Positions 21,584-64,000 of a stretch of 64,000 nt of DNA are shown in pieces. The position numbers and the translations under genes are program-made. The stretch is from NCBI GenBank assembly GCA_964016885.1, contig OZ024761.1:11780001-11844000 (forward strand), in the 5' to 3' direction. The DNA comes from Eledone cirrhosa. Lineage: Eukaryota. The notes beneath the pieces are model-generated. The model saw only the letters and a list, made by a program, of their open reading frames with translations. It was not told where the DNA came from and ran no database searches. Numbering within the stretch: position 1 is the first letter of the stretch; each line of letters opens with the position of its first letter.

Positions 21584-24500
21584 GTATGTTTCTTTGTTAT
21601 TATTATTGTTGTTGTTGTTATTACTAGGGTAGTGGTTTAACAGAGTTATTAGAGCGTCTTTGTTCAGTTCTTGACATTCTGAGTCCAAATCCCACCAAAG
21701 TTATGTTTGCCTAGATAAATAGTTTTTATCATTGATAAAAAGCACCCAGTCCACACTGAGAAGTGGTCATATAGGTGTCATGATAAAAAGCACCCAGTCC
21801 ACACTGAGAACTGGTCATATAGGTGTCATGATAAAAAGCACCCAGTCCACACTGAGAACTGGTCATATAGGTGTCATGATAAAAAGTGCCCTGTCCACAC
21901 TGAGAACTGGTCATATAGGTGTCATGATAAAAAGCACCCAGTCCACACTGAGAACTGGTCATATAGGTGTCATGATAAAAAGCACCCAGTCCACACTGAG
22001 AACTGGTCATATAGGTGTCATGATAAAAAGTGGCCTGTCCACACTGAGAACTGGTCATATAGGTGTCATGATAAAAAGTGGCCTGTCCACACTGAGAACT
22101 GGTCATATAGGTGTCATGATAAAAAGTGCCCTGTCCACACTGAGAACTGGTCATATAGGTGTCATGATAAAAAGCACCCAGTCCACACTGAGAACTGGTC
22201 ATATAGGTGTCATGATAAAAAGCACCCAGTCCACACTGAGAACTGGTCATATAGGTGTCATGATAAAAAGCACCCAGTCCACACTGAGAACTGGTCATAT
22301 AGGTGTCATGATAAAAAGCACCCAGTCCACACTGAGAACTGGTCATATAGGTGTCATGATAAAAAGCACCCAGTCCACACTGAGAACTGGTCATATAGGT
22401 GTCATGATAAAAAGCACCCAGTCCACACTGAGAACTGGTCATATAGGTGTCATGATAAAAAGCACCCAGTCCACACTGAGAACTGGTCATATAGGTGTCA
22501 TGATAAAAAGCACCCAGTCCACACTGAGAACTGGTCATATAGGTGTCATGATAAAAAGCACCCAGTCCACACTGAGAACTGGTCATATAGGTGTCATGAT
22601 AAAAAGTGCCCTGTCCACACTGAGAACTGGTCATATAGGTGTCATGATAAAAAGTGCCCTGTCCACACTGAGAAGTGGTCATGGAGGTGACACGACAAAA
22701 AGCACCCAGTGTAAATGTGGTTAGCGTTAGGAAGGGCATCCATCCAAAGAAACCATGCCAGAAACAGTTCTGTATGAACAAGACATGGAACAACTTGTCT
22801 AACACATACTAGCATGAAAAAATAGACATTAAAGGTGATGATGAGGAATCTGGTGTGGTTTCAGGTGGGTTGGTATCAATAGTTTGGCATGGCCATCTGG
22901 TCTGTCCCTCTTCACAGTGGTGCCACCCAGTTCCAGGCTTTTAAATATGCTTCTGCTGTCATTATGGTGCCATCCAGTCCCATACTGTAAATGTGGTTGG
23001 TGTAGGAAGGGCACCTAGCTGTAAAATCCCCATCCAAATTTACGGTCCCGTCAAAGCAAGGTGTGGCATGACCAGTCCTGGCTAGATTTGTCTCTTGATG
23101 CGGACAACTTGTCTGGCCCATGCTAGCATGGAAAAATGGAGGCTAATCCTTTAGTACATTACTCTATATATACTATTGTATTTTCATGGTAAAGGCTTTA
23201 GCTTACATAACATTTACATTACTCTATATATACTATTGTATTTTCATGGGAAAGGCTTTAGCTTACATAATATTTACATTACTCTATATATACTATTGTA
23301 TTTTCATGGTAAAGGCTTTAGCTTACATAACATTTACATTACTCTATATATACTATTGTATTTTCATGGGAAAGGCTTTAGCTTACATAATATTTACATT
23401 ACTCTATATATACTATTGTATTTTCATGGTAAAGGCTTTAGCTTACATAACATTTACATTACTCTATATATACTATTGTATTTTCATGGGAAAGGCTTTA
23501 GCTTACATAATATTTACATTACTCTATATATACTATTGTATTTTCATGGGAAAGGCTTTAGCTTACATAACATTTACATTACTCTATATATACTATTGTA
23601 TTTTCATGGTAAAGGCTTTAGCTTACATAATATTTACATTACTCTATATATACTATTGTATTTTCATGGGAAAGGCTTTAGCTTACATAATATTTACATT
23701 ACTCTATATATACTATTGTATTTTCATGGTAAAGGCTTTAGCTTACATAATATTTACATTACTCTATATATACTATTGTATTTTCATGGGAAAGGCTTTA
23801 GCTTACATAATATTTACATTACTCTATATATACTATTGTATTTTCATGGTAAAGGCTTTAGCTTACATAATATTTACATTACTCTATATATACTATTGTA
23901 TTTTCATGGGAAAGGCTTTAGCTTACATAATATCGAATCTATGAGATTTTGATATTATTTATTTTGAGAACAATACCTTAATGTCAGTATGAGTGGCTGG
24001 TTACGGCCGGTTTGAACAGAAAGGGGTGAAAGAATTCTGGCCGGATACGGCTGGTTTAAACACTAAAGGGTTAAACGGTGTTGATGATGATGATGATATA
24101 TAATATATTTACTGTAATTCTTTTCTTCTTTTTCAGCAGCATCAAGCTCAATCACAGCAACAGGTCCATATACAAAAACAGCAACAACAGACACATCCTC
24201 CGCAGCAGGTGCATGCTGTGCAACAACAAATGCATATATCTCAACAGCAATCAAATTCAGTGCAACGGCAGCAACCCCACACAGTGCAGCGACAGTCACC
24301 ATCTCCTCAGAGGCAGACAACACCACACACTGTGCAGCAGCAGCAGCAGCAGCAGCAACAATCACAACTACCACAAAGACAGCTGCAGTCACACCCGGTG
24401 CAACTGTCCCAATCACCACCACAACAACAACAACAGCAGCCACAACAGCCACCACCACCACAACAACAACAGCAGCAGCAGCAACTACCATGCCAGTCTT

Positions 24501-27500
24501 CTTCTCCCCAGCAGCCACAGTCCCCACATCAACATTTACATATTGTACAGCAGCAATCCCAGTCCCCTCAGCAACAACTGCAACCAATGCAACAACAAAT
24601 ATCTCAACATTCACATTCCCATTCTCAACCGGCCTCCTCATCCCCCCAACAGGCTCTGACGGCGGCAGCAGTAGTAGCAGCACCACCACCAACCACCAAC
24701 AACAACAACAACCAGCCTACTGCTGCTCCCCTTCAATCAGCTGACTTTATTAAGAAAAATGACAATGTGAAATGTCCCAGTATATTGAACACCCCCCACA
24801 GTAGAGTTAGCAGTCCAACTGTGAACAACTCAATTTCCTCCCGGAGTAACTCACCCCCTATCCGAGTACCACAGTATACCATCAGCAAAACTCTCTTACA
24901 GGTAACCTTTTTTTTTTTTTTCCTGTTTTTCTTTGTTCCTTTTGTTTGTAAATGTGGTTGCGGGTCCCGGACTATGGTTCCGCTGTGAGCAGGGTACAGC
25001 ACGGCCAACTGGTCTGTCTCTGTCCCACATTCATTTTTTTTATTTTTTTTTTTTTATTTTTTATTAATCCAGAAGATTGCGTTGGTATGGCCATGTGACT
25101 GCACATGGAGGATGACCGCTGGGTAAAGAAGTGCCAAGAAATCCCAGAGGAAGGATGACCACGAAAATCATGGGCGGAGGTGGTGAGAGCTGAGCTAACC
25201 TCAGATCGCTGAAGCTCACAGAGGAAATGACGAAGGAATGTGATGAATGGAGAGATGCTGTCCTGAAAAGGGCCCGTCCCACCCTTGCAAGCAAGGAAAA
25301 GCGGACGTGAAATGATGATGATATAATGTTAGGGTATATTTAACAGACATTTACTATGAAAAAAAAAATATTTGAAATTCTCTGTTATCTTATGGCTGTA
25401 CCTTTCAACAAGATTTCTATGGGTGAAGAGGACACTTCAGTTATGTTAAGGGCACAACAACCTCTTTAGTGTTGGAGATCTACACTATGAATTCACCCAA
25501 ATACACTCTGTGTTAAACTGAGTAATGGTTTATGTCTATCATTCAATTAGGCCTCAGTGGTATTTGAAATCGGGACGAAAATAGCTGGAACAAATACTGC
25601 AAGGCATCTCATCCAATGCTTCGGTGATCCTGCCTTGTGCTAGTAACTTATTTAGCAAACCCAGAAGTTTCCCACATTTGAGAAGCTGAAACAAATACTG
25701 CAGACCATTCTATCAGACATTCTACCCATAACAGAAACTTTCAATGAGATTCAGCATGACACAGTAGTGTGTAACAAGGCTAACACATTGAATTACTGGT
25801 ACAGTCTATTCAACACAGGCTTCCCAACAGTTTCCATCTACCAAATTACACTCACAAGGTTTGCTTTGACCTGAGGCAATGTTAACCCTTTAGCATTTAC
25901 ATTACTCTATATATACTATTGTATTTTAACAGTAAAGGCTTTACCTTGCATAACTATTTCACATAATATCGAATCTATGAGATTTTGATATTTATTTTGA
26001 GAACAATACCTTAACATAAGTATGAGAGGCCAGTTACAGCCAGTTTGAACAGAAAGAGGTGAGAGAATTCTGGCCAGATATGGCCGGCTTAAATGCTAAA
26101 AGGTTAAATGAAGTACTTTCAATGCTGGTGTGAGCTGGAAGGGTTGTCATAGTTTGGACAACCTTGTCTCACTCGTATGTTTCAATTTTGGCATAGATTC
26201 CACAGCTGGATGCCTTTCCTAATGCCAACCACTATACAGAGTGTACTGGGTGTACTTTGTAAAGTGGTTTGTGATAAGTAGATCAAAAATATGAAACGTT
26301 TTTCGTTTTTGCCAACTGCAGAGTGGATTCATGATAAATAACACTCAGTCCACCCTGTAAAGTGGTAGTGCTGGTGACACAATAAAATACACCCAGTACA
26401 CCCTGTAAAGTGGTAGTGCTGGTGCCACAATAAAACACTCCCAATACACCCTGTAAACTGGTAGTGCTGGTGACACAATAAAACACTCCCAATACACCCT
26501 GTAAAGTGGTAGTGTTGGTGTCACAATAAAACACTCCCAATACACCCTGTAAAGTGGTAGTGCTGGTGACACAATAAAATACACCCAGTACACCCTGTAA
26601 AGTGGTAGTGTTGGTGCCACAATAAAACACTCCCAATACACCCTGTAAACTGGTAGTGCTGGTGACAATAAAACACTCCCAATACACCCTGTAAAGTGGT
26701 AGTGCTGGTGACACAATAAAATACACCCAGTACACCCTGTAAAGTGGTAGTGCTGGTGCCACAATAAAACACTCCCAATACACCCTGTAAAGTGGTAGTG
26801 TTGGTGCTACAATAAAATACACCCAGTACACCCTGTAAAGTGGTAGTGTTGGTGCTACAATAAAATACACCCAGTACACCCTGTAAAGTGGTAGTGTTGG
26901 TGCTACAATAAAATACACCCAGTGCACCCTGTAAAGTGGTAGTGCTGGTGTTTTTTATCACAGCACCAACACTACCATTTTACAGTGCTGAAATTGTAAA
27001 ATGTTTTGTCTGTTGTGTTTCTTAAGTTTACCAATATATATTTTTCAGAACAAGAACCAGATGGCTCCCCCTAATGTACTTCCACCAAAGCGAACCTGTA
27101 CAGAAGGTGAACTAGATATCAAAAAAACTGTTGATAAAAAACCACCTATAACATGTGACGAGAAGAATGTTAAAACTAGCCAAAACATGTCGCGAGTAAG
27201 TTGATATTGTCTCTATCTATTACATGGTCCATTGTTGTTTTACTGGTTTCAGTCATTGTATTGCAGCCATGCTGGAGCACTACTTTGAAGGGTTTAGTCC
27301 TTCATATTGACTATAGTGCTTTTTGTTTTGTTTTTTTCATGTTTGGTACTTATTTTCCCTTTACAAAGGGCATTGCCTGATTTCTCTCCTTATCTTAACT
27401 TTATTCTCAAAATGCCACTGACTCCCTGTTTCCATCTACAAATGATTAGCAATGCTTGATTTCTCTCCCTATCTTCTTATCTTGATTTACTTCTAAAAGG

Positions 27501-33500: not shown

Positions 33501-36500
33501 ACCAGTGACGTACTGGGGTTGATATGGTTGACACCCCCCCCCCCCCCCCTCTTCCAAATTGCTGGTCTTGTGCTAATATTAGAAATGATTATTTTTGATT
33601 TGGTAAAGTTGAAAAAAACAAAACGGTAATCTGTTAACTGCTTTAAATATTTACAGGTCGCCCACCGAAACATGGCACATCTCCAACCAACAGTCGTCCA
33701 GGAACTCCTGATAGTTCTGACAGTAATGCTAGTATCAAAAATGGTATTGTGAATGGCTCAACCGACGTAAGTATTCTCTTATCTTCTAACCCTAACTTAC
33801 TTTAGATCACATCTACCTACTGTTTATTTTCTATCATTGTTGTTGGACCTCCGTCACTTTCGATGACTCCTGTCCCAGTTATGCTACAAATACTAGTTAA
33901 CCCTTAAGCATTTACATTTCTCTCTATATATACTATTGTATTTTCACAGTAAAGACTTTGTTACACTAGCAGTGGTACCCGGCGTTGCACAGGATACGGT
34001 ATTTTGGAACGCGGGCCACCGACTAAACCACTAATCGTGGAAAAACTACATGCCTGGACAATATCTAAAGAAAATAAACCGAATACTCTGATGACTGGAT
34101 AATCTTTAAGATTTTCCTCGATGGAGCAGAAATAATGCAGGTTTTCACCTAATGCGGGCCCTAGGGGATCAAGAAAATGAATTTTTTTATGTGCATAATA
34201 TGCCTTTAAATTTCGGGAAAATCAGCTAGACGTAACACCTCAAAAAAGCCTTAAAAAGCTGAAAAAATGAAGTCTTTCACCTAATGCGGGCCCTAGTCCA
34301 TAAAAAAGTTGGATTTTCTTTGCTCACGGTATGAAGAAGAGACTGACTAATACATAGTTACAATTTCAAGGAAATCGGTCTGGCGTAACGCCTCAAGACA
34401 CCCCTAAAAATCTGAAAAAACGCAGTTTTTCACCTAATACAGGCCCTAGGGGATAAAAAAGTTAAATTTGTTCATGTGCGTAACACTCCCTGAAACAAGT
34501 AATACACATGTAAAGTTTGAAAAAAATCGGTTGGGTACTTCTCGAGTTTTAGGGATTCAAACTCACAGACACACAGATAGACAGACATCCTCAGTTTTAT
34601 ATATATATAGATAATTATCTCACATAATATCGAATGTATGAGATTTTGATGTTATTTATTTTGAGAACAATACCTTAACATCAGTATGAGTGGCTGGTTA
34701 CAGCTGATTTGAACAGAAAGAGGTGAGAGAATTCTGGCTGGATATGGCCGATTTAAATGCTAAAGGGTTAAATAATGAGGAAATTAGTAATATCACTAAT
34801 TCCCAGCAAATAATTAAAATTTTCTAAATTAGAATTATGGTAATTAAAGGATAAATATTGAACTGTGAAGGCGTGTGGCTGAGTTGTTAGAGAATTGGAT
34901 TCACAATCGTGAGGTTGTGATTTCGATTCCCTGACCGAGCGATGCGTTATGTCCTTGAGCAAGACACTTTATTTCACGCTGCTTCTTCTGCCTGGATTTG
35001 TGACCAGTAGATAGTATTAGCAATTCAAAAGACCAATGGAAACATTGTTTCCTCGGTCCAATTTGGTCTGGGATCTTGTCAATAGACTTGATATATTGAA
35101 CTGAAAATAAAAATTTACACTAAAACTAACATTGTTTTTGATTTTTGAAACCCCAAAATGTATCAATGTTTTTCTCTTATTGAAATATTCTTGATTCTTG
35201 TTTTTTTTTAACCACAGGACATACATGATGGTCTTTGCTTTGTCTGCCAAAAAGCTGGCCGATTATTGATCTGTGATGGCTGTGGTATGGCATATCACCC
35301 TACATGTCTAGAACCTCCAGTTGCTACTTTTCCTAATGGTCCTTGGAGGTGTTACAAATGTCAGGTATATTGAGCTTTAACATTTCATTTTTTATATATA
35401 TTATTGGCATCTGTCAGTCTCGACAGGCTATGGTTCCATGCCAGAAGAATTTATGTCAGCTGCTGATGTCTGTGCAGTATCTGCTGTGGCTGTACAGACC
35501 CACACAGGAGTGGCAGTCCTGTTTACAGCTACATTGGTAGATACTCTCCTCTGGTACTACTCTAGCTGTACAGACCCACACAGGAGTGGCAGTCCTGTCT
35601 ACAGAGACTACATTGGTAGATACTCTCCTCTGGTACTACTGGGGCTGTACAGACCCACACAGGAATGGCAGTCCTGTCTACAGAGACTACATTGGTAGAT
35701 ACTCTCCTCTGGTACTACTGTGGCTGTACAGATCCACACAGGAGTGGCAGCCCTGTATACAGAGACTACATTGGTAGATACTCTCCTCTGGTACTACTGG
35801 GGCTCTACAGACCCACATAGGAGTGGCAGTCCTGTATACAGAGACTACATTGGTAGATACTCTCCTCTGGTACTACTGGGGCTCTACAGACCCACATAGG
35901 AGTGGCAGTCCTGTATACAGAGACTACATTGGTAGATACTCTCCTCTGGTACTACTGGGGCTGTACAGACCCACACAGGAATGGCAGTCTTGTCTACAGA
36001 GACTACATTGGTAGATACTCTCCTCTGGTACTACTGGGGCTGTACAGATCCACACAGGAATGGCAGTCTTGTCTACAGAGACTACATTGGTAGATACTCT
36101 CCTCTGGTACTACTGGGGCTGTACAGATCCACACAGGAATGGCAGTCTTGTCTACAGAGACTACATTGGTAGATACTCTCCTCTGGTACTACTGGGGCTG
36201 TACAGATCCACACAGGAATGGCAGTCTTGTCTACAGAGACTACATTGGTAGATACTCTCCTCTGGTACTACTGGGGCTGTACAGACCCACACAGGAATGG
36301 CAGTCTTGTCTACAGAGACTACATTGGTAGATACTCTCCTCTGGTACTACTGGGGCTGTACAGATCCACACAGGAATGGCAGTCTTGTCTACAGAGACTA
36401 CATTGGTAGATACTCTCCTCTGGTACTACTGGGGCTGTACAGATCCACACAGGAATGGCAGTCTTGTCTACAGAGACTACATTGGTAGATACTCTCCTCT

Positions 36501-39373
36501 GGTACTACTGGGGCTGTACAGATCCACACAGGAATGGCAGTCTTGTCTACAGAGACTACATTGGTAGATACTCTCCTCTGGTACTACTGGGGCTGTACAG
36601 ATCCACACAGGAATGGCAGTCTTGTCTACAGAGACTACATTGGTAGATACTCTCCTCTGGTACTACTGGGGCTGTACAGACCCACACAGGAATGGCAGTC
36701 TTGTCTACAGAGACTACATTGGTAGATACTCTCCTCTGGTACTACTGTGGCTGTACAGATCCACACAGGAGTGGCAGTCCTGTCTACAGAGACTACATTG
36801 GTAGATACTCTCCTCTGGTACTACTGGGGCTGTACAGACCCACACAGGAATGGCAGTCTTGTCTACAGAGACTACATTGGTAGATACTCTCCTCTGGTAC
36901 TACTGGGGCTGTACAGACCCACACAGGAGTGGCAGCCCTGTATACAGAGACTACATTGGTAGATACTCTCCTCTAGTACTACTGTAGCTGTACAGACCCA
37001 CACAGGAATGGCAGTCCTGTCTACAGAGACTACATTGGTAGATACTCTCCTCTGGTACTACTGTGGCTGTACAGGCCTTCACTGGAGTGGCAGTCCTGTC
37101 TACAGAGACTACATTGGTAGATACTCTCCTCTGGTACTACTGTAGCTGTACAGGCCCACACAGGAGTGGCAGTCTTGTCTACAGAGACTACATTGGTACA
37201 TACTCTCCTCTGGTACTACTGGGGCTGTACAGGCCCACACAGGAATGGCAGTCCTGTCTACAGAGACTACATTGGTAGATACTCTCCTCTGGTACTACTG
37301 TGGCTGTACAGGCCCACGCAGGAGTGGCAGTCCTGTCTACAGAGACTACATTGGTAGATACTCTCCTCTGGTACTACTGTGGCTGTACAGGCCCACACAG
37401 GAATGGCAGTCCTGTCTACAGAGACTACATTGGTAGATACTCTCCTCTGGTACTACTGGGGCTGTACAGACCCACATAGGAGTGGCAGTCCTGTCTACAG
37501 AGACTACATTGGTAGATACTCTCCTCTGGTACTACTGTAGCTGTACAGACCCACACAGGAGTGGCAGTCCTGTCTACAGAGACTACATTGGTAGATACTC
37601 TCCTCTGGTACTACTGTGGCTGTACAGACCCACACAGGAGTGGCAGTCCTGTCTACAGAGACTACATTGGTAGATACTCTCCTCTGGTACTACTGGGGCT
37701 GTACAGACCCACACAGGAGTGGCAGTCCTGTCTACAGAGACTACATTGGTAGATACTCTCCTCTGGTACTACTGTAGCTGTACAGACCCACACAGGAATG
37801 GCAGTCCTGTCTACAGAGACTACATTGGTAGATACTCTCCTCTGGTACTACTGGGGCTGTACAGACCCACACAGGAGTGGCAGTCCTGTCTACAGAGACT
37901 ACATTGGTAGATACTCTCCTCTGGTACTACTGGGGCTGTACAGACCCACACAGGAGTGGCAGTCCTGTCTACAGAGACTACATTGGTAGATACTCTCCTC
38001 TGGTACTACTGTAGCTGTACAGACCCACACAGGAGTTGCAGCCCTGTCTACAGAGACTACATTGGTAGATACTCTCCTCTGGTACTACTGTGGCTGTACA
38101 GACCCACACAGGAGTGGCAGTCCTGTCTACAGAGACTACATTGGTAGATACTCTCCTCTGGTACTACTGGGGCTGTACAGACCCACACAGGAATGGCAGT
38201 CCTGTCTACAGAGACTACATTGGTAGATACTCTCCTCTGGTACTACTGTAGCTGTACAGACCCACACAGGAGTGGCAGTCCTGTCTACAGAGACTACATT
38301 GGTAGATACTCTCCTCTGGTACTACTGGGGCTGTACAGACCCACACAGGAGTGGCAGACCTGTCTACAGAGACTACATTGGTAGATACTCTCCTCTGGTA
38401 CTACTGGGGCTGTACAGGCCCACACAGGAATGGCAGTCCTGTCTACAGAGACTACATTGGTAGATACTCTCCTCTGGTACTACTGGGGCTGTACAGACCC
38501 ACACAGGAGTGGCAGTCCTGTCTACAGAGACTACATTGGTAGATACTCTCCTCTGGTACTACTGGGGCTGTACAGACCCACACAGGAGTGGCAGTCCTGT
38601 CTACAGAGACTACATTGGTAGATACTCTCCTCTGGTACTACTGTAGCTGTACAGACCCACACAGGAATGGCAGTCCTGTCTACAGAGACTACATTGGTAG
38701 ATACTCTCCTCTGGTACTACTGTAGCTGTACAGACCCACACAGGAATGGCAGTCCTGTCTACAGAGACTACATTGGTAGATACTCTCCTCTGGTACTACT
38801 GTGGCTGTACAGACCCACACAGGAGTGGCAGTCCTGTATACAGAGACTACATTGGTAGATACTCTCCTCTGGTACTACTGGGGCTGTACAGACCCACACA
38901 GGAATGGCAGACCTGTCTACAGAGACTACATTGGTAGATAATCTCCTCTGGTACTACTGTGGCTGTACAGACCCACACAGGAGTGGCAGTCCTGTATACA
39001 GAGACTACATTGGTAGATACTCTCCTCTGGTACTACTGGGGCTGTACAGACCCACACAGGAATGGCAGTCCTGTATACAGAGACTACATTGGTAGATGCT
39101 CTCCTCCGGTGCAACTGTGTTGTTCTTTTTTCGAGCACTCTTTTCCTTGGTTGTAGTTATTTATATATATATATGAGAGAGAGAATAAGGAAATACAAAG
39201 TTTAGATGATAAAGTCCTTTATTGATAAGGCTATGATACATATTTCGAGGATGACATTGGTTATGCAATACAGTGTAGAAGCTAGCGCCATGCTCTCTTC
39301 AGACAGCGTCATAGATAATAAAGTTACAATCAAGGAGGTAATCCAAAATTGAAGTGACAAGGGAACGTTCCCT

Positions 39374-39408
<35 letters not shown>

Positions 39409-42400
39409 ATAATAATAAATGTGAAGACTAACTTCCAAAGAGGGCTCGATAAGGATAAATATATATCAAATATATAAGAACCGTAGAGCAAATATTTATT
39501 AAAATAACAGATTAAAGTTTAAGCAAAGAATCGCTGCTTTGACCCTTAACGGGATCTTCAGAAGATCCCGTTAAGGGTCAAAGCAGCGATTCTTTGCTTA
39601 AACTTTAATCTGTTATTTTAATAAATATTTGCTCTACGGTTCTTATATATTTATCCTTATTGAGCCCTCTTTGGAAGTTAGTCTTCACATTTATTATTAT
39701 TACTATAAATATAAATATATATAACTTATTTAAAATGTCATATTGATGTTGGAATTTCCCTGGGGTCAACCTGTCTAATGTAAAAACATGTCTAATTACA
39801 GAACGAGAAGAATTCTACAGGTGGATCAGTAACATTGGATATAGTACACAATTATATCATCAACAAAACAGGTGAGTATTGGTTTCTCTGGCTTGGGCTG
39901 GTTTAACCATTAAACCTTTAGCATTTACATTACTCTATATATACTATTGTATTTCTGTGGTAAAGGCTTTACCTTACATAATATCTTACATAACATTTAC
40001 ATTACTTTATATATACTATTGTATTTTCACAGTAATGGCTTTACCTTACATAATATCTTACATAACATTTACATTACTCTATATATACTATTGTATTTTC
40101 ACAGTATAGGCTTTACCTCACATAATATTTCACATAACATTTACATTACTCTATATATACTATTGTATTTTCACAGTAAAGGCTTTACCTCACATAATAT
40201 CTCATAACATTTACATTACTCTATATTTACTATTGTATTTTCACAGTAAAGACTTTACTCACATAATATCTCACATAACATTTACATTACTCTATATATA
40301 CTATTGTATTTTCACAGTAAAGGCTTTACCTCACATAATATCTCATAACATTTACATTACTCTATATATACTATTGTATTTTTATTGTAAAGACTTTACC
40401 TCACATAATATCTCACATAACATTTACATTACTCTATATATACTATTGTATTTTCACAGTAAAGGCTTTACCTCACATAATATCTCATAACATTTACATT
40501 ACTCTATATATACTATTGTATTTTTATTGTAAAGACTTTACCTCACATAATATCTCACATAACATTTACATTACTCTATATATACTATTGTATTTTCACA
40601 GTAAAGGCTTTACCTCACATAATATCTCATAACATTTACATTACTCTATATATACTATTGTATTTTTATTGTAAAGACTTTACCTCACATAATATCTCAC
40701 ATAACATTTACATTACTCTATATATACTATTGTATTTTCACAGTAAAGGCTTTACCTCACATAATATCTCATAACATTTACATTACTCTATATATACTAT
40801 TGTATTTTTATTGTAAACACTTTACCTTACATAATATCGAATTGATGAGATTTTGATTTTATTTATTTTGAGAACAATACCTTAACATCAGTATGAGTAG
40901 ACAGTTGTGGTCAGTTTGAATAGAAAGAGATAAGAGAATTCTGACCAGATACAGCAGGTTTAACCCTTTAGCATTTACATTACTCTATATATACTACATT
41001 TTCGTGGTAAAGGCTTTATCTTACATAATTATCTCACATAACATCGAATATATGAGGTTTTGATATTATTTATTTTGAGATAAGTATGAGTGGCCAGTTA
41101 CAGCTGTTTTGAACAGAAAGGGGTGACTGAATTCTGGCAGGATATGGCTGGTTTAAATGCTAAAGGGTTAAACAAAGTAAGTACATATCTAGAACATCAA
41201 AAGAAAAGGGACACTAGTCTATTAGAATTAAATATATTTGCCATTCCCTACTGAAGTGGTTTAGAGCAAATTTGTATTGGCTAACGAACTCCAGCAGGCT
41301 GAATCATTATGGTGACCACAATTAATATCCCATCAACAATACTGTGTCTGTCCATTGCCAATTTTTTATTTCAATTTTAAACAAAATATTTTATTCATTT
41401 ATTTTTCCTTCCATTTTATCAGCCAAAGATGAAGAAAGAAAGAAATTACAAAGAAGAAACACAGAATTAAACAATGAACGAATACAGTTAGAAACAAATA
41501 CAAAACAACTTTCCCAATCATTATATGTAAGTATTCTCTTAGTTTTAATCAGTATTTATATTAAAAGCTATAAGTCGTACAGTCATGTCGTTGTCATCGT
41601 TTATACATCCACCCTAACCCATCCTCCAACTTCTGTCCACTGTCTCAGTGACACAACAAAAAGCACCCAGTCCACACTGTAAGGTGGTCATGTAGGTGAC
41701 ACAACAAAAAGCACCCAGTCCACACTGTAAGGTGGTCATGTAGGTGACACAACAAAAAGCACCCAGTCCACACTGTAAGGTGGTCATGTAGGTGACACAA
41801 CAAAAAGCACCCAGACCACACTGTAAGGTGGTCATGTAGGTGACACAACAAAAAGCACCCAGTCCACACTGTCAGGTGGTCATGTAGGTGACACAACAAA
41901 AAGCACCCAGTCCACACTGTAAGGTGGTCATGTAGGTGACACAACAAAAAGCACCCAGTCCACACTGTAAGGTGGTCATGTAGGTGACACAACAAAAAGC
42001 ACCCAGTCTACATTGTAAGGTGGTCATGTAGGTGACACAACAAAAAGCACCCAGACCACACTGTAAGGTGGTCATGTAGGTGACACAACAAAAAGCACCC
42101 AGTCCACACTGTAAGGTGGTCATGTAGGTGACACAACAAAAAGCACCCAGTCTACATTGTAAGGTGGTCATGTAGGTGACACAACAAAAAGCACCCAGTC
42201 TACACTGTAAGGTGGTCATGTAGGTGACACAACAAAAAGCACCCAGTCTACACTGTAAAATGGTCATGTAGGTGACACAACAAAAAGCACCCAGTCTACA
42301 CTGTAAAATGGTCATCTCTGTCATGTTAGGGTTTTGAAATCCACTCTGAGCATTTCTGCTCAGATCTTCCGTGGCCTTCCTCTACTGCAGCTTCCTTCCC

Positions 42401-44363
42401 CTGAGATCTCCTGGTCATCAGCATGTAGAAGTTCCTACAGACATCCGGTCTAAAAGACCTCTGTTATGGCTTGTAGAACGATAATAAACAGGGAGAGGAT
42501 GACTGGGTCTTGATAAATACGCACCTACACATTGAATTCTTCAGTAAGCACTTTACTTACTCTCACTCTGCTCACTGCTCCAGTATACATAGCTTACACT
42601 TCTCTCACAAGCCACTCTTCTCCCAATTTCCTTAAGGACCACCAGATAATAGCTTGTGATGTACATAGCTTACACTTCTCTCACAAGCCACTCTTCTCCC
42701 AATTTCCTTAAGGACCACCAGATAATAGGTTGTGATGTACATAGCTTACACTTCTCTCACAAGCCACTCTTCTCCCAATTTCCTTAAGGACCACCAGATA
42801 ATAGCTTGTGATGTACATAGCTTACACTTCTCTCACAAGCCACTCTTCTCCCAATTTCCTTAAGGACCACCAGATAATAGGTTGTGATGTACATAGTTTG
42901 CATTTCTCTCACAAGCCATTCATCTCCTCCCAATTTCCTTAACCCTTTAGCATTTACATTACTCTACATATTGTATTTTCATGGTAAAAGCTTTATCTCA
43001 CATAATATTGAATTTACAAGATTTTGATATTATTTATTTTGAGAACAATACCTTTACATCAATATGGCCAGTTAGAGCCAGTTTGAACAGAAAGAGGTGA
43101 GAGAATCCTGGCTGGTTTAAATGCTAAAGGGTTAAGGACGACCAGATAATAGGTTGTGGTATACAAAGCTTGCACTTCTCTCACAAGCCAAGGACGTCTG
43201 CGGGTTGCATTTGGTTGATAGGTTGTAGTGTACTGGCCACTTTTCTAGATCACCATCATCATTTAATGTGCCTTCTTCCCTGCTGCTCACGAGTTGTACA
43301 AGTCATTACAGACCAAGCCAGAACTTAATCAGAGCTACTGACATTCCATCCCTATTCGGTACCTATTACTTACATACAATTCAAATTATCTCCCCTGATC
43401 CTACACTAAAGCATGTTTAGGTATCTCGCTCTTCAATAAACACAATCGATAAGATAAAATACCAGTCAAGTACTGGGTCGATTTAATCAACTTTGCCCTC
43501 TGCACAAAATTGTTGGCTTTGTGCCTAATTAGAAATCATAATTTTGTTGCCTTTATATATATGTATATATGTATATGTATGTATGTATGTATGTATATAT
43601 ATATATATATATATATGAAGTTGTAGTTCCTGTCTGTTTGTCTGTTTGTTCACAAACTCCTCCTATGGTTTTGGAGATAGACCCCCCCCATAACCATATA
43701 TATTCTGAAACTACATTGCCCAGGGTACTTGGATAAGTATATTTCATTTTAATCAAAGGGTCACAAACCCCGGGGACACAAACCCCCACTGAAAAGTTTT
43801 TCCCTTCGATTTATATGAAATTTAAACCATAGGCAAATGACAAGATATGATGCCTATTCACAACATTTCAGCAAATTTCAATAATATTAAGACACCCTAA
43901 TGGAGTTTTTCTCCATAAATTATATCACTGATTTAAAACCAATCATCATTTTCTTACAAAAAAAAAATGTGTGAAACGCAACAAAGTGCAGGTAATTCGG
44001 CTATTATATATCAAAACTTCCATGCTTCCTGAAATTCGCCAACACTACACCTGATATTTTCCCTCCATACACACGCACACATGTATCTGTGTGTATATTA
44101 TGACTCATACACTGTTCACTTTCCTGACAATTGTACATTATTCTATGAACTATACATGCACCTTTGATGAGTTGTAGTGTGCCTGAGCACTGTATACAAT
44201 AATTTTCATTGTTATTTATATTTCATGACATCTAATTATCTCCCTTCTTTCTCTTCTTCTCCAGCAATGTATTCAACAGAAACAAGAATTAATGAAGACA
44301 AACAAAAAAGTACAGCAGTCTGCAGACAATATAAATAACTTCCTTCAAATATTCCAGTCTTGA
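21491..44363 (+). CDS. PHF21A: PHF21A/BHC80-like PHD finger protein, multi-exon, 5'-partial. Join: 21491-21583, 24137-24901, 27049-27195, 30479-30530, 31787-31863, 32980-33040, 33657-33766, 35218-35364, 39802-39871, 41423-41526, 44265-44363
   Basis: All exons have AG/GT boundaries and the phases join into one frame ending in TGA. Translated motifs are collinear with vertebrate PHF21A as I recall it: KVIVQILRKELV, KLQYMASLDLVTPETLKELQSKRSERKRRSTANP, AT-hook KRPRGRPPK, PHD DIHDGLCFVC..CDGC..YHPTCLEPP..PNGPWRCYKCQ, TLDIVHNYI..KTAKDEERKKL and a C-terminal coiled coil. Confidence 0.9.
21733..22710. repeat. Minisatellite, 48-bp unit, ~20 copies, derived from a SINE-internal motif
   Basis: Unit tgataaaaagcacccagtccacactgagaactggtcatataggtgtca. 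Runs directly into the remainder of the SINE (gttaggaagggcatcc...). Confidence 0.95.
23148..24070 (+). mobile_element. piggyBac-type MITE A with an internal 60-bp unit expanded ~13x (23157-23933)
   Basis: The unit is the left part of the MITE. The right part and TIR ctaaagggttaa follow the array. Confidence 0.92.
24137..24901 (+). CDS. PHF21A: PHF21A-like Q/P/S/H-rich low-complexity exon, 255 codons (phase 0-0)
   Basis: Polypyrimidine tract plus ttttcag|cag acceptor, donor CAG|gtaacc. Same frame as ORF 24209..24988, with mixed CAG/CAA polyQ codons. Confidence 0.85.
25070..25321 (+). mobile_element. RTE-clade LINE 3' fragment
   Basis: Reads RRLRWYGHVTAHG... with frameshifts. Inverted homolog of 27992-28260. 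Confidence 0.85.
25886..26103 (+). mobile_element. piggyBac-type MITE A
   Basis: ttaa|ccctttagcattta ... taaatgctaaaagg|ttaa. Confidence 0.9.
26345..26950. repeat. Minisatellite, 48-bp unit, ~12.5 copies
   Basis: Unit acaataaaatacacccagtacaccctgtaaagtggtagtgctggtgcc with two interleaved variants. Confidence 0.95.
27049..27195 (+). CDS. PHF21A: PHF21A-like exon NKNQMAPPNVLPPKRTCTEG...KTSQNMSR (phase 0-0)
   Basis: Acceptor tttttcag, donor CGA|gtaagt, 147 nt open. Unique sequence between repeats. Confidence 0.8.
27590..27765. repeat. Tandem repeat, ~65-bp unit, ~2.7 copies
   Basis: tagtattagacactaactccctgttgttttaacactacc x3. Confidence 0.85.
27992..28735 (-). mobile_element. RTE-clade LINE 3' fragment (decayed RT C-terminal region)
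   Basis: ORF 27955..28494: KGRLYDACVRSAMLHGSGTW...RERRLRWYGHVM...GRRGRGRPRKTW. Upstream of it HKRCSGIAGKL remnants. (GAT)n tail. Confidence 0.92.
29037..29232 (+). mobile_element. Nin/Deu-domain tRNA SINE
   Basis: Closely similar to 2297-2490. Imperfect TSD attattgaaactctgtctc / attattaaagctctctctc. Confidence 0.85.
29640..29870 (-). mobile_element. Old RTE-like LINE fragment
   Basis: KLDGAFTKVLRVVQNIN...KNKSLY, then in another frame LRFTGHCWRSKQEV. Confidence 0.75.
30479..30530 (+). CDS. PHF21A: PHF21A-like exon KLQYMASLDLVTPETLK (phase 0-1)
   Basis: Acceptor atttccag, donor AAG|gttggt. Matches the conserved KLAFMVSLGLVT motif. Confidence 0.88.
31078..31194 (+). CDS. Candidate alternative cassette exon (phase 1-1, 39 codons): GKMEEKYNNEICRKRAMERLMIDGTLRDPWHKGMMGGGR
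   Basis: Acceptor cttttttctag, donor GAG|gttagt, 117 nt. Open in exactly the frame needed between the flanking exons. Purine-rich island in an AT-rich intron. Confidence 0.55.
31787..31863 (+). CDS. PHF21A: PHF21A-like exon ELQSKRSERKRRSTANPQFSYSLESD (phase 1-0)
   Basis: Acceptor tttcacag, donor GAT|gtaagt. Matches EIQSKRQERKRRTTANP of PHF21A. Confidence 0.92.
32100..32629 (-). mobile_element. TTAA-flanked MITE family B, two partial copies with an internal ~65-bp duplication
   Basis: Homologous to 47388-47629 and 20230-20455. Ends aatgaaaggg|ttaa and shares that TTAA with the adjacent MITE A. Confidence 0.7.
32634..32855 (+). mobile_element. piggyBac-type MITE A
   Basis: ttaa|ccctgtagcattta ... 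taaatgttaaaggg|ttaa. Confidence 0.9.
32980..33040 (+). CDS. PHF21A: PHF21A-like exon RKRMNYLVGSNITTGTKRPR (phase 0-1), first half of the AT-hook
   Basis: Acceptor ctctccacgtag, donor GAG|gtatgg. Confidence 0.85.
33237..33595 (+). mobile_element. Internally deleted MITE A followed by a Nin-domain SINE
   Basis: ccctttaccatt...taaatggtaaagagttaa, then actttgcttttcatc...aaagtaccagt. Confidence 0.75.
33657..33766 (+). CDS. PHF21A: PHF21A-like exon GRPPKHGTSPTNSRPGTPDSSDSNASIKNGIVNGSTD (phase 1-0), AT-hook core
   Basis: Acceptor atttacag, donor GAC|gtaagt. Completes KRPRGRPPK. Confidence 0.88.
33901..34767 (+). mobile_element. MITE A interrupted by a Helitron-like insertion
   Basis: Left TIR at 33901, right TIR ends at 34767. 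The halves rejoin as ttaca^taattatctc. Confidence 0.88.
33966..34611 (-). mobile_element. Non-autonomous Helitron-like element (646 bp)
   Basis: Minus strand starts TCtatatatatataaaactgaggatgtctgtct and ends gcaacgccgggtaccactgCTAG. Inserted between A and T with no TSD. Three internal tttcacctaatgcgggccctag repeats. Confidence 0.85.
34865..35090 (+). mobile_element. tRNA-derived SINE (tgtccttgagcaagacactttatttcac core) with an extended 3' part; inverted homolog at ~55485-55785; shorter copies at ~520-635, 15885-16020 and 29895-30070
   Basis: Head gaaggcgtgtggctgagt.gttagag, B-box-like ttcgattccc, shared agtattagcaatt..aatggaaacattgtttcctcg. Confidence 0.75.
35218..35364 (+). CDS. PHF21A: PHD finger exon DIHDGLCFVCQKAGRLLICDGCGMAYHPTCLEPPVATFPNGPWRCYKCQ (phase 0-0)
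   Basis: Complete C4HC3 ligand set plus the conserved Trp. Acceptor accacag, donor CAG|gtatat. Confidence 0.95.
35485..39108. repeat. Minisatellite, 79-bp unit, ~46 copies, inside an RTE LINE 3' fragment (-)
   Basis: Unit gctgtacagacccacacaggagtggcagtcctgtctacagagactacattggtagatactctcctctggtactactggg. The minus strand encodes PEESIYQCSLCRQDCHSCVGLYSHS. Confidence 0.97.
39230..39307 (-). ncRNA. Minimal type-I hammerhead ribozyme motif (Penelope-like element type)
   Basis: Minus strand: GCTGT-CTGAAGA-GAGCATGGCG...TGTCATCCTC-GAAA-TATGTA-TC-ATAGC. Stem I is GCUGU/AUAGC, both core boxes are intact, stem II is closed by GAG/CUC, stem III is vestigial and quasi-palindromic, and the cleavage triplet is AUC. 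Confidence 0.6.
39406..39705. mobile_element. Long near-perfect palindrome (~150-bp arms centred near 39560), Penelope-like inverted terminus or foldback
   Basis: ...cccttaacgggatcttc a gaagatcccgttaaggg.... Further copies at 6998-7163 and 63056-63293, all next to (TA)n. Confidence 0.85.
39802..39871 (+). CDS. PHF21A: PHF21A-like exon NEKNSTGGSVTLDIVHNYIINKT (phase 0-1)
   Basis: Acceptor ctaattacag, donor CAG|gtgagt. Matches TLAIVHSYIAYKA. Confidence 0.85.
39915..41167 (+). mobile_element. MITE A with an internal 71-73-bp unit expanded ~13x (39921-40836), followed by a second MITE A (40964-41167)
   Basis: Unit catttacattactctatatatactattgtattttcacagtaaaggctttacctcacataatatctcataa. MITE right part follows. 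Confidence 0.92.
41423..41526 (+). CDS. PHF21A: PHF21A-like coiled-coil exon AKDEERKKLQRRNTELNNERIQLETNTKQLSQSLY (phase 1-0)
   Basis: Acceptor ttttatcag, donor TAT|gtaagt. Matches AKEEEKQKL...EREQLEQKVKQLS. Confidence 0.9.
41648..42315. repeat. Minisatellite, 48-bp unit, ~14 copies
   Basis: Unit gacacaacaaaaagcacccagtccacactgtaaggtggtcatgtaggt. Confidence 0.95.
42410..43190 (-). mobile_element. Decayed RTE reverse-transcriptase fragment carrying a 76-bp tandem expansion (~5.5 copies, 42585-43190)
   Basis: Minus strand: IIWWSLRKLGEEWLVREV*AMY (unit), then TGAVSRVRVSKVLTEEFNV*VRIYQDPVILSLFIIVLQAITEVF*TGCL*ELLHADD. Confidence 0.85.
42943..43131 (+). mobile_element. piggyBac-type MITE A inserted in the TTAA of a satellite unit
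   Basis: Empty units read aatttccttaaggacc. The filled unit reads aatttccTTAA-MITE-TTAAggacg. Confidence 0.95.
43590..44005 (+). mobile_element. Degenerate non-autonomous Helitron-like element
   Basis: Starts (TA)n-gaagttgtagttcctgtctgtttgtctgtttgttc and ends gcaacaaagtgcaggtaattcggctat. Same architecture as 33966-34611. Confidence 0.55.
44012..44218 (+). mobile_element. CR1 LINE 3' end
   Basis: Inverted homolog of 20492-20690. Confidence 0.82.
44265..44363 (+). CDS. PHF21A: Terminal coding exon QCIQQKQELMKTNKKVQQSADNINNFLQIFQS*
   Basis: Long polypyrimidine tract plus ccag acceptor. In-frame TGA at 44361-44363. The heptad pattern continues the coiled coil. Confidence 0.85.
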   Translation, partial: QCIQQKQELMKTNKKVQQSADNINNFLQIFQS

Positions 44364-57422: not shown

Positions 57423-57580
57423 TTTGGAATAGAATAATTTATAATAATGGATAAAAAAAAATCAAGATGGATAAATTTAAGATATTTCATTTATACATGT
57501 TTCAACGAGAAAGAGATTAGATGAAAGCAAAATGAAATGGCGCGAAAAACTTGCTTAAGCCTTGTTATTAATATATTGAG

Positions 57581-58075: not shown

Positions 58076-58679
58076 ATACTTCCTGATTTAGATGTGTTTG
58101 AGTACATTAGAATCTGAGCAACACCTGAACAATGTCTTATATAAAGTTTATGTTGGATGATTTTAGTTTAAATAATAATACTAAGTTTTGTTTTGTAAGA
58201 CTAGAGACATGCTGGTATCAAAGGACTCAACAGTTAAATGGTAAGTCTCTTGGCTGGGAAGAAAGGGTCAAAAGAGAACATAACAGGGCCACACAATACA
58301 GAAGGTCAACAGAGAAAATAACAGGGCCACACATAATACAAAGGGTCAACAGAACATCATGGGGTCACATGTAACACAAAGGCTCACCAGGGAACATACT
58401 GTGGAACTGTGATCTCCATAAGCTGCAGTGAAGGTAATCCAACTAAGAGAGCAGTAACTGTGAATAAGACCTGATACAGGGTAGAGAAGATGGTTATGTC
58501 CTGTCAGACAACCTTTCTATTGCTGCTGCCATGATAAGATGTACCCAGTCCACACTGAGAACTGGCTGCTGATAGGAAGGACAAATGATGGCAAGCCCAA
58601 ATTTTATGTCCAACCCATGCAAGCCTGGGAAAACTGGCATAAAAAGTTGGAGTTGGTATAATGATGATGAACCTCACCA

Positions 58680-58904: not shown

Positions 58905-59047
58905 CACTCTCTGCTGGTCTTGGAGATGTTGGAATGAGGTTGATGGCAGTGTCTCTCTCTGTTGGTCTTGGAGATGTTGGAATGAGGTTGATGGCAGTGT
59001 CTCTCTCTGTTGGTCTTGGTGATGTTGGAATGAGGTTGATGGCAGTC
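58905..59047. repeat. 48-bp tandem repeat x3 at the 3' end of an RTE fragment
   Basis: ctctctgttggtcttggagatgttggaatgaggttgatggcagtgtct. Confidence 0.9.
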
Positions 59048-59147
59048 TCAGCTGAAATGAACTCAACAATAGATCTCCACGTAGGTCTGTCATTCATTGC
59101 CGCTGCCAAGTCCTGGATTTCAATACCAGAATCCCTGAAGATGACAT

Positions 59148-61135
59148 CCCTGTTATTAGTGACTGCTTGTGGTTTCTAGAGTACTAAAGGTAACACAGCC
59201 TCATAGATGGCCAGCAAATCGGGATAGGAGAGCTTGTGCCCCCTGTTATTAGTGACTGCTGTGGTTTCTAGAGTACTAAAGGTAACACAGCCTCATAGAT
59301 GGCCAGCAAATCGGGATAGGAGAGCTTGTACCCCCTGTTATTAGTGACTGCTGTGGTTTCTAGAGTACTAAAGGGGACACAGCCTCATAGATGGCCAGCA
59401 AATCGGGATAGGAGAGCTTGTACCCCCTGTTATTAGTGACTGCTGTGGTTTCTAGAGTACTAAAGGGGACACAGCCTCATAGATGGCCAGCAAATCGGGA
59501 TAGGAGAGCTTGTACCCCCTGTTATTAGTGACTGCTGTGGTTTCTAGAGTACTAAAGGGGACACAGCCTCATAGATGGCCAGCAAATCGGGATAGAAGAG
59601 CTTGTACCCCCTGTTATTAGTGACTGCTGTGGTTTCTAGAGTACTAAAGGGGACACAGGCTCATAGATGGCCAGCAAATCGGGATAGGAGAGCTTGTACC
59701 CCCTGTTATTAGTGACTGCTGTGGTTTCTAGAGTACTAAAGGGGACACAGCCTCATAGATGGCCAGCAAATCGGGATAGGAGAGCTTGTACCCCCTGTTA
59801 TTAGTGACTGCTGTGGTTTCTAGAGTACTAAAGGGGACACAGCCTCATAGATGGCCAGCAAATCGGGATAGGAGAGCTTGTACCTCCTGTTATTAGTGAC
59901 TGCTGTGGTTTCTAGAGTACTAAAGGGGACACAGCCTCATAGATGGCCAGCAAATCGGGATAGGAGAGCTTGTACCCCCTGTTATTAGTGACTGCTGTGG
60001 TTTCTAGAGTACTAAAGGGGACACAGCCTCATAGATGGCCAGCAAATCGGGATAGGAGAGCTTGTACCCCCTGTTATTAGTGACTGCTGTGGTTTCTAGA
60101 GTACTAAAGGGGACACAGCCTCATAGATGGCCAGCAAATCAGGATAGGAGAGCTTGTGCCCCCTGTTATTAGTGACTGCTGTGGTTTCTAGAGTACTAAA
60201 GGGGACACAGCCTCATAGATGGCCAGCAAATCGGGATAGGAGAGCTTGTACCCCCTGTTATTAGTGACTGCTGTGGTTTCTAGAGTACTAAAGGGGACAC
60301 AGCCTCATAGATGGCCAGCAAATCAGGATAGGAGAGCTTGTGCCCCCTGTTATTAGTGACTGCTGTGGTTTCTAGAGTACTAAAGGGGACACAGCCTCAT
60401 AGATGGCCAGCAAATCGGGATAGGAGAGCTTGTACCCCCTGTTATTAGTGACTGCTGTGGTTTCTAGAGTACTAAAGGGGACACAGCCTCATAGATGGCC
60501 AGCAAATCGGGATAGGAGAGCTTGTACCTCCTGTTATTAGTGACTGCTGTGGTTTCTAGAGTACTAAAGGGGACACAGCCTCATAGATGGCCAGCAAATC
60601 GGGATAGAAGAGCTTGTACCCCCTGTTATTAGTGACTGCTGTGGTTTCTAGAGTACTAAAGGGGACACAGCCTCATAGATGGCCAGCAAATCGGGATAGG
60701 AGAGCTTGTACCCCCTGTTATTAGTGACTGCTGTGGTTTCTAGAGTACTAAAGGGGACACAGCCTCATAGATGGCCAGCAAATCGGGATAGGAGAGCTTG
60801 TACCCCCTGTTATTAGTGACTGCTGTGGTTTCTAGAGTACTAAAGGGGACACAGCCTCATAGATGGCCAGCAAATCGGGATAGGAGAGCTTGTACCTCCT
60901 GTTATTAGTGACTGCTGTGGTTTCTAGAGTACTAAAGGGGACACAGCCTCATAGATGGCCAGCAAATCGGGATAGGAGAGCTTGTACCCCCTGTTATTAG
61001 TGACTGCTGTGGTTTCTAGAGTACTAAAGGGGACACAGCCTCATAGATGGCCAGCAAATCAGGATAGGAGAGCTTGTGCCCTGTTATTATTGACTGCTTG
61101 TGGTTTCTAGAGCATTAATGGGGACACAGCCTTGT
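59148..61135. repeat. Minisatellite, 92-bp unit, ~21 copies, inside an RTE-like LINE fragment (-, ~59045-61260)
   Basis: Unit ccctgttattagtgactgctgtggtttctagagtactaaaggggacacagcctcatagatggccagcaaatcgggataggagagcttgtacc. Minus-strand flanks translate LPHISVIVLKRRVRFAGHCHRAT and DVIFRDSGIEIQDLAAAMNDRPTWRSIV. Confidence 0.95.
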
Positions 61136-61313
61136 AGGTGGCACGATGGCAGTGGCCAGCAAATCTTACTCTCCTTTTAAGTACAATGACAGATATGTGT
61201 GGTAGGCTGGCTTATATCTCTTCCAAGTCAGATGTCACCAGCTTCTCAATGAGGTTGATAGACTGTCCTCGTTCCATTGTCCATGTAGGTGGTAGTGTCA
61301 GCTTGTCTTACAC

Positions 61314-63050: not shown

Positions 63051-63055
63051 TATAT

Positions 63056-63293
63056 AGTAATAATAATAATTGTGAAGACTAAAATCCAAAGAGGGCTCGA
63101 TAAGGATAAATATATAACAAATATATAAGAACCGTAGAGCAAATATTTATTAAAATAACAGATTAAAGTTTAAGCAAAGAATCGCTGCTTTCACCCTTAA
63201 CGGGATCTTCTGAAACTAACAAAGTCAATCTGTGAATCCCGTTAGGGGTGAAAGCAGCGATTCTTTGCTTAAACTTTAATCTGTTATTTTAAT
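63056..63293. mobile_element. Palindromic element (same family as 39406-39705)
   Basis: Full left arm, short spacer and partial right arm, flanked by (TA)n. Confidence 0.85.
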
Positions 63294-63394
63294 ATATATA
63301 TATGATTGTGTGTCTATGTCTATATATGTATGTTTGCATGCATGAATGAATACACTAAGCTTTAGATTTAGTGATTCCAAACAGCCAACAACAC

Positions 63395-64000
63395 AGATCC
63401 AATGATCAGAGTTAACCAACAAGACCTGGAAGAAGTCGACCACTTGACCTATCTTGGTAGCCTCCTGGCAAACAATGGATATGTGGAGCTCGACATCAAC
63501 TGTCGGATCGGCAAAGGAGCCAGTTTTTCAGCGGATGCACCCAGACTAGTCGTCTTCAAACATCAGCACCGGGATCAAGCTGCACCTGTACAAGACCATC
63601 GTGTTGCCGACAGTGCTTTACGCGAGCGAAACTTGGAAGAGCATGGCAAAGATGGAGAGGCGACCGAACGAATTCCACCAGTGGTGCCTGCGAATGATCC
63701 TTCGTGTGTCCTGGCACGACCGAGTGCGAAACGAGGAAATCCTGCAGAAAGCCGAGTCGTGGACATTACAGAAGGTGACGGAGCACCGGTGCTGCCTGGC
63801 TGGCAATATGCTGCACCGGCCCGACGAATGACACTCGAAAACAGTGAGGAACTAGACTCCACCTGGCGGCAAAGGGAGGCGGGGTTGCCCCAGGTTCACC
63901 TGGCGGCAAAGGGAGGCGGGGTTGCCCCAGGTTCACCTGGCGGCAAACGGAGGCGGGGTTGCCCCAGGTTCACCTGGCGACAAAGGGAGGCGGGGTTGCC
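63395..64000 (+). mobile_element. Decayed RTE-clade LINE RT C-terminal region, ending in a 37-bp tandem expansion (63860 to window end)
   Basis: IRVNQQDLEEVDHLTYLGS..DINCRIGK, IKLHLYKTIVLPTVLYASETW..FHQWCLRMILRVSWHDRVRNEEIL, PPGGKGRRGCPRFTWR. Frameshift and stops present. Confidence 0.92.

What the first reader, a model, noticed from the sequence alone, without database searches (positions are those of the whole stretch)
21733..64000. Minisatellites repeatedly born inside transposon fragments, with parent elements still flanking them
Seen: at least nine arrays are tandem amplifications of an internal slice of an element that continues on one or both sides. The 79-, 76-, 92- and 37-bp units sit in four different RTE LINE fragments, the 60- and ~72-bp units in a piggyBac MITE, and three 48-bp units match one SINE motif. 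Junctions often show microhomology: cacctggcg for the 37-mer, cacag for the 79-mer, gat for the 92-mer. Units are much more alike than the decayed hosts are to their families. Inference: amplification is recent, post-insertional and independent of element class, which points to a very active local tandem-expansion process that inflates introns. TE-derived satellites are known, but this density of traceable births in 45 kb looks unusual.
Basis: partly seen in the sequence, partly recalled or inferred. Interest (0 to 1): 0.72.

Follow-up and report, generated by a model that had tools for sequence, protein, structure and literature searches.

The report
Minisatellites spreading between transposon copies
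Nine tandem repeats in and beside one animal gene are slices of old jumping genes, but seven of them recur with the same unit or junction elsewhere in the genome, so most were likely copied in from other sites or carried in ready-made and then grew here, a pattern of a kind already described in reptiles and flies.

Summary
The nine arrays are real and are slices of LINE, SINE and MITE copies; the three microhomologies hold. The reading 'independent recent births at unusual density' does not. Density is ordinary for small chromosomes of this genome, and in sampled stretches arrays overlap dispersed repeats no more often than control slices (38 of 71 vs 302 of 680). Only the 37- and 76-mers look born on site. 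The others are multi-locus families. The 72/60-mer MITE junction has 19,655 exact matches, with units half as diverged as single MITE copies. The 92-mer is a shortened form of a 107-bp LINE duplication whose exact junction is absent from the 65% of the genome in C1-C7, where single-unit copies are common. The 79-mer is shared, polymorphisms included, with two other LINE insertions 0.4 Mb away whose flanks are about 20% different. The 48-mer is built into SINE subfamilies. Best reading: a junction forms once by microhomology, is likely copied into other transposon copies by ectopic conversion, then expands locally. Close precedents are squamate SINE satellites and Drosophila Rsp-like. This scan noted the same on other DNA of this genome.

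The parts
21733..22710 (+). 48-bp x20 array, SINE-internal repeat; SINE 3' part follows; 9-bp inverted repeat at the left edge
23144..24074 (+). TTAA-type MITE holding the 60-bp x13 array (23155-23933); short form of the genome-wide 72/60 family with private fixed changes
26334..26990 (+). 48-bp x13 array, second SINE unit type, ending in a fold-back copy of its own unit; a minus-strand SINE piece lies just upstream
35218..35364 (+). PHD-finger exon of a PHF21A-like host gene (coding exons about 21490-44370, boundaries approximate)
   Evidence: Pfam PHD E 2.6e-11; PHF21A 2puy E 1.6e-14, second to CHD4 whose score sums two domains
35405..39160 (-). 3' tip of a LINE holding the 79-bp x46 array (35484-39117); units shared with arrays at G000:C22:12.19 and 12.24 Mb
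39910..40960 (+). MITE holding the 72-bp x13 array (39922-40838; 72/70 alternation); a second MITE copy abuts its right end
41648..42315 (+). 48-bp x14 array, same SINE unit type as 21733 and as arrays on many chromosomes
42410..43190 (-). old LINE RT fragment with the 76-bp x4.7 array (42586-42942), split by a MITE inserted at TTAA (about 42943-43135); no second tandem locus among 40 scored
58907..59046 (+). 48-bp x2.9 repeat of unrelated sequence whose unit contains one copy of the likely 12-bp target duplication of the next LINE
59047..61244 (-). 5'-truncated LINE copy holding the 92-bp x21.6 array (59148-61132), a shortened form of a 107-bp multi-locus duplication
63400..64000 (+). LINE fragment running into the 37-bp array (63860 onward, about 22 units to G000:C22:11844669); LINE 3' end missing

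Best explanation
These arrays are slices of dispersed transposons, and most of them likely began as one microhomology-guided duplication elsewhere that was then copied into other copies of the same element by ectopic recombinational repair and grew locally by unequal exchange. Step 1 (shown in sequence): 3-9 bp of microhomology bound each unit in single-unit parents. Step 2 (shown): the same junction recurs at many loci for the 72/60-, 79- and 107/92-mers; the 48-mer repeat is part of SINE subfamilies and travels with them. Step 3 (inferred): a break in a single-unit copy is repaired on an array-bearing copy (template switch in synthesis-dependent strand annealing, or re-entry of an excised circle), which gives an old host young units; this favours near neighbours and small chromosomes. 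Step 4 (inferred from unit patterns): local unequal exchange and conversion set copy number and fix private variants such as the 92- and 60-bp forms. The 37- and 76-mers likely stopped at steps 1 and 4 (born and grown on site).
For: 79-mer: three separate LINE insertions within 430 kb (no shared outer flanks, 3' tips 77-81% alike) have majority units 78-79/79 identical, share 5-10 exact unit types pairwise and none with the arrays on C4 and C2, and share 7 variant sites in all three; the exact junction pattern has 111 matches, the 100 listed falling at 4 loci, 3 of them these. MITE: 15 of 47 copies in 117 stretches not chosen for it have 2 or more units; units of 12 arrays lie 3.3% from the family consensus against 6.9% for the same segment in 32 single copies (P=0.002) while tails are equally diverged (same trend in the search-selected set); 19,655 exact junction matches. 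107/92-mer: 425 junction matches, listed in contig order and starting at C8, so none on C1-C7, where 12 of 24 single-unit copies lie (0 of 26 listed loci vs 12 of 24, P=2e-5); 14 of the 26 loci on C13; array-bearing copies sit on both alleles of flank polymorphisms yet share in-unit variants.
Against: 107-mer units and flanks are equally diverged (4.0-4.5%), so no recent homogenisation there; its flank tree is a star and cannot exclude one source gene. The three C22 79-mer hosts share 2-3 derived flank changes, so they may descend from one local copy, with exchange only afterwards. No multi-unit block is shared by the window's array and either neighbour beyond shuffles (37 and 47 of 60 shuffles reach it; 2 of 60 for the neighbours' pair). 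Neighbouring 48-mer arrays are no more alike than distant ones (3 near pairs 3-5 differences, 25 far pairs mean 4.4). The window's 60-mer is as diverged as its tail (5.0% vs 6 of 123). MITE subfamily structure may inflate single-copy divergence, and only 6 arrays had usable tails in the unbiased set. One assembly only; no empty or single-unit allele seen.
Confidence: 0.6

Rival explanations
1. The duplication was already in an active source element, was spread by ordinary transposition, and each insertion then expanded alone (VNTR-carrying retroposon or MITE).
For: Clearly so for the 48-mer: SINE subfamilies carry 2-3 diverged 48-bp units in near-identical dispersed copies. Two-unit 79- and 107-mer copies exist; junction-bearing 79-mer copies share one derived base near the junction; 107-mer units and flanks are equally diverged.
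Against: Absence of the exact 107 junction from C1-C7; both flank alleles under one junction; MITE units younger than their tails; shared segregating variants among three 79-mer arrays with flanks about 20% apart.
Confidence: 0.25
2. Each array was born independently where it lies, at microhomology hot spots.
For: Fits the 76-mer (no other tandem locus among 40 scored) and the 37-mer (9-bp natural repeat; a diverged two-unit copy on C20, present at two mutually duplicated loci, and a roughly 59-bp array over the same segment on C3).
Against: A 3-bp microhomology would not give one junction in 6 of 30 LINE copies with shared in-unit variants; independent births start monomorphic and would not share 7 variant sites.
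Confidence: 0.12
3. Arrays are assembly artefacts.
For: Raw long reads over the arrays were not examined; a contig of a run that may be the assembly's source covers only the unique flank.
Against: 24 unit types among 45 in the 79-mer with ordered runs, ancestral edge units, an inserted MITE, and the same junctions at other loci.
Confidence: 0.03

Closest known systems
SINE-derived satellites (sSat1-3) of squamates, PMC10702118 (abstract, section 5 and Discussion read; supplements not opened)
   Same: Multi-locus arrays of an internal slice with parent sequence at one or both ends; units more alike within and between loci than the host SINEs (89% vs 64% in the cobra).
   Different: Here the hosts are LINE 3' ends, a MITE and a SINE in one genome, and neighbouring insertions share segregating variants; the sections read invoke unequal recombination and concerted evolution without testing copy-to-copy transfer.
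Rsp-like spread into 1.688 clusters in Drosophila simulans clade, PMC7403614 (12 passages read)
   Same: One microhomology junction formed once, then proposed to spread by interlocus conversion or circle re-entry into pre-existing homologous sites.
   Different: There the landing pads are satellite clusters on the X; here they are single dispersed transposon copies. No circle or Hi-C data here.
MITE-borne tandem repeats (Xstir in Xmix, miDNA4) and TE-derived human minisatellites, as listed in review PMC9659126 (12 passages read; the primary papers not seen)
   Same: Tandem unit inside a non-autonomous DNA element; thousands of minisatellites traced to transposons.
   Different: Units here are younger than host tails, which points to transfer between resident copies, not only to transposition of array-bearing elements.
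SVA-type VNTR retroposons (recalled, no call)
   Same: The SINE carries an internal variable repeat in its mobile form.
   Different: The 107-mer hosts are variably truncated LINE copies, 24 of 30 with one unit, not a composite element with fixed ends.

Membership tests
TE-derived multi-locus satellite (sSat-like) | Unit is a slice of a dispersed element with parent sequence at an end | tested here: met
   8 of 9 arrays have parent flank on at least one side; 26334 has none clearly
TE-derived multi-locus satellite (sSat-like) | Same unit at many loci | tested here: met
   48, 60/72, 79, 92/107; not met for the 76-mer, marginal for the 37-mer
TE-derived multi-locus satellite (sSat-like) | Units more alike between loci than hosts are | tested here: inconclusive
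   met for 79 (near loci) and 72; not met for 107 or the window's 60-mer
TE-derived multi-locus satellite (sSat-like) | Subtelomeric preference | not tested
   only a small-chromosome excess was measured: 13.6 vs 3.4 arrays per 100 kb
Single-locus minisatellite born by microhomology | Short direct repeat bounding the unit in the parent, no sister arrays | tested here: inconclusive
   microhomology met for 37 (9 bp) and 76 (about 4 bp); no sister array among 40 scored for 76, searches score only the best candidates
RTE-clade LINE (hosts of 79, 76, 92, 37) | RT-type ORF remains and microsatellite-like 3' tail | tested here: met
   RVT_1 (E 2e-5, below the curated cut-off) in a relative of the 76 host; DUF6451 in relatives of the 79 and 37 hosts; ORF remains and three-base-repeat tails for the 107 host
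RTE-clade LINE (hosts of 79, 76, 92, 37) | Placement in the RTE clade by RT phylogeny | not tested
piggyBac-type MITE | TTAA target duplication and terminal inverted repeats | tested here: met
piggyBac-type MITE | Autonomous piggyBac partner with the same ends | not tested
   Kolobok elements also use TTAA (recalled); superfamily left open
SVA-like composite retroposon (92/107-mer host) | Fixed 5' end and repeat in all copies | tested here: not met
   variable 5' truncation, 24 of 30 single-unit

The most novel reading that the evidence does not exclude
Minisatellite junctions behave as homing elements without any protein of their own: they invade resident transposon copies of any class by ectopic repair, first in cis over hundreds of kb and mostly on small chromosomes, converting about a third of one MITE family and making dispersed repeats a road network for satellite spread and intron growth.
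Probability: 0.35. Interest if true: 0.62.

Novelty: new variant of a known kind. Interest (0 to 1): 0.4.

Why it matters
How a satellite gets from one locus to many is an open step in satellite evolution. Here each array sits in a datable host copy, so host age, unit age and distance can be compared at thousands of loci in one genome. That makes copy-to-copy transfer directly testable, and it warns that arrays with intact parent flanks are not proof of birth on site. The window itself is an ordinary sample of a genome-wide process.

Tried and rejected
Unusual density: rejected. TE enrichment genome-wide: not significant (a 1-Mb library misses rarer families, including the 79, 92 and 37 hosts, so both rates are lower bounds). 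A fixed-end SVA-like element for the 92-mer, suggested: rejected. Shared unit order between 79-mer arrays: not above shuffles for the window's pairs. Proximity effect for 48-mers: none. Flank tree of the 107 family: unresolved star. A genome search with the 48-mer returned nothing because common words are skipped. The 37-mer unit-versus-host age test was uninformative because the consensus came from another subfamily. Public contigs from other organisms covered at most one exon of the flank, so no orthologous empty site was seen. Literature searches for cephalopod minisatellites listed no paper on this by title or abstract start; the library lacks most subscription journals. Rows left out: L158 (unplaced contig) from density counts; L143; duplicate loci; 2 of 14 fetched 79-mer hosts could not be classified.

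Full report
Setting. The window is G000:C22:11780001-11844000, on a 31.8-Mb chromosome of a 3.0-Gb animal genome. That it is an octopod comes from recalled SINE resemblance and from earlier scan notes, not from a test here. A PHF21A-like gene runs on the plus strand (PHD exon 35218-35364); its approximate coding exons end near 44370.

Observation. TRF finds all nine arrays. Each unit matches a dispersed element. The three microhomologies hold, the 3-bp one for the ancestral 107-bp junction. Parent sequence lies on both sides for the 60-, 72-, 79- and 92-mers, on one side for the 37-, 76- and two 48-mers, and on neither clearly for the 48-mer at 26334. Seven arrays make up 7,950 of 22,682 bp between the exon ending near 21584 and the last coding exon; the 92- and 37-mers lie far downstream.

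Is it unusual? With one filter (period 25 or more, 2.8 or more copies, 85% or more matches), 10-kb stretches at round-number positions gave 14 arrays in 410 kb on large chromosomes, 14 in 170 kb on medium ones, 57 in 420 kb on small ones and 20 in 110 kb beside the window; the window has 12 in 64 kb, 10 in the finding's range. That is not an excess (P 0.07 and 0.25). Array units had a non-tandem homologue elsewhere in 38 of 71 cases against 302 of 680 control slices (P=0.17); the neighbours showed an excess (15 of 19 vs 77 of 190) and the window did not reach significance (6 of 12 vs 35 of 120). So this genome makes arrays from much of its DNA, and 22 of 71 sampled arrays share a unit with an array in another stretch.

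79-mer. The host is a LINE 3' tip. The exact junction pattern has 111 matches, all on one strand; the 100 listed fall at four loci, three within 430 kb on C22. These three are separate insertions: no shared outer flanks, tips 77-81% alike. Their majority units agree at 78-79 of 79 bases; they share 6, 10 and 5 exact unit types and none with arrays on C4 or C2; seven variant sites segregate in all three. Independent births would start from different, monomorphic units, so the arrays have exchanged sequence. Against a clean import story: the three hosts share 2-3 derived flank changes, and unit order is not shared beyond shuffles for the window's pairs. Junction-bearing copies on C2, C4, C15, C17 and C22 share a derived base at the junction, which points to one origin.

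72/60-mer. The host is a MITE with TTAA ends. In 117 stretches not chosen for it (1.22 Mb, window and neighbours included), 15 of 47 copies have two or more units; units of the 12 longer arrays lie 3.3% from consensus against 6.9% for 32 single copies (P=0.002), with tails equal at 9.6% (6 and 30 copies, noisy alignment). The search-selected, hence biased, set gave 2.3% for inner units against tails of 6.3% and 6.8%. Under any neutral process confined to one locus a unit should be as old as its host, so younger units imply transfer between loci (inference). The 40-bp junction has 19,655 exact matches. The window's 60-mer is an exception, with private fixed changes as deep as its tail's.

92-mer. 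It is a shortened form of a 107-bp duplication in a LINE; the last unit keeps the longer form, and a likely 12-bp target duplication flanks the copy. Of 30 copies fetched by the 5' part, 24 have one unit and 6 have 2-6. The junction has 425 exact matches; the list runs in contig order and starts at C8, so none lies on C1-C7, 65% of the genome, where 12 of the 24 single-unit copies lie (P=2e-5 for 0 of 26 listed loci). Fourteen of those 26 loci are on C13. Array-bearing copies carry both alleles of flank polymorphisms but share in-unit variants near the junction; the flank tree is a star. Units and flanks are equally diverged. This favours old, regional copying over retrotransposition but does not exclude a source gene.

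48-mers. SINE subfamilies carry two to three diverged 48-bp units in their dispersed form, and long arrays of two unit types occur on many chromosomes. The seed travels with the SINE. Near arrays are no more alike than far ones.

37- and 76-mers. These fit birth on site. The 37-mer parent has a 9-bp direct repeat 37 bp apart; a longer inner unit records a second slip; a diverged two-unit copy exists on C20. The 76-mer has no sister array among 40 scored, and a decayed MITE sits inside it, so the seed is old and only the growth is recent.

Mechanism. Shown: microhomology at parents, shared junctions, shared variants, younger units, chromosomal bias. Inferred: transfer by ectopic template switching or circle re-entry, then local unequal exchange. 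I put this at 0.6, source-borne seeds as the main route at 0.25 (they are the route for the SINE), independent births at 0.12, artefact at 0.03.

Known work. Squamate sSats show the same anatomy and unit-over-host similarity (PMC10702118; abstract, section 5, Discussion). Rsp-like spread was explained by the same junction-then-conversion model (PMC7403614; passages). MITE-borne and human TE-derived minisatellites are listed in PMC9659126 (passages). Three searches listed no cephalopod paper on this; supplements were not opened. My reading was logged before I opened the scan's notes; notes e1-10310973 and e1-9525303 reach the same view on other DNA of this genome, and the first led me to the sSat paper. 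Verdict: real, genome-wide, a new variant of a known kind; interest 0.4.

Noticed in passing
window 21723-21742 and 26925-26990: Two SINE-unit arrays have an inverted copy of unit sequence at one edge (9-bp palindrome; about 24-bp fold-back with a 10-bp spacer), as snap-back template switching would leave.
   Followed up: partly
window about 33965-34612: About 650-bp insertion inside a MITE copy, with ends that resemble non-autonomous Helitron/Helentron elements (resemblance recalled).
   Followed up: no
window about 39405-39710 and 63055-63290: Two copies of one element that folds back on itself over more than 100 bp, each starting at a TA run.
   Followed up: no
window about 56990-57425: Nested MITE pieces in opposite orientations forming long inverted repeats.
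   Followed up: no
window 58544-58565: A lone SINE fragment carries the unusual variant of the 21733 array unit, 36 kb away; no other fetched locus had it, a hint of local exchange.
   Followed up: partly
L024:1234-10000 and L025:1-5722: 14.5-kb array of another 48-bp unit 30 kb downstream; the same unit occurs as a short array in L032.
   Followed up: no
L042-L046, L049: Several 107-mer LINE copies carry a second, about 26-bp tandem repeat 130 bp away in the same element; the two co-occur.
   Followed up: partly
L045 (G000:C807): A 93-bp shortened unit alternates with the 107-bp unit, a parallel to the window's 92-mer.
   Followed up: partly
window 1-5522 and L027:9433-9995: Arrays of 55, 105, 50 and 56 bp upstream of the finding; the 50- and 56-mers had no homologue in the 1-Mb sample.
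   Followed up: partly
sampled stretches: The MITE itself is denser on small chromosomes (16 copies in 420 kb) than on large ones (4 in 410 kb).
   Followed up: partly
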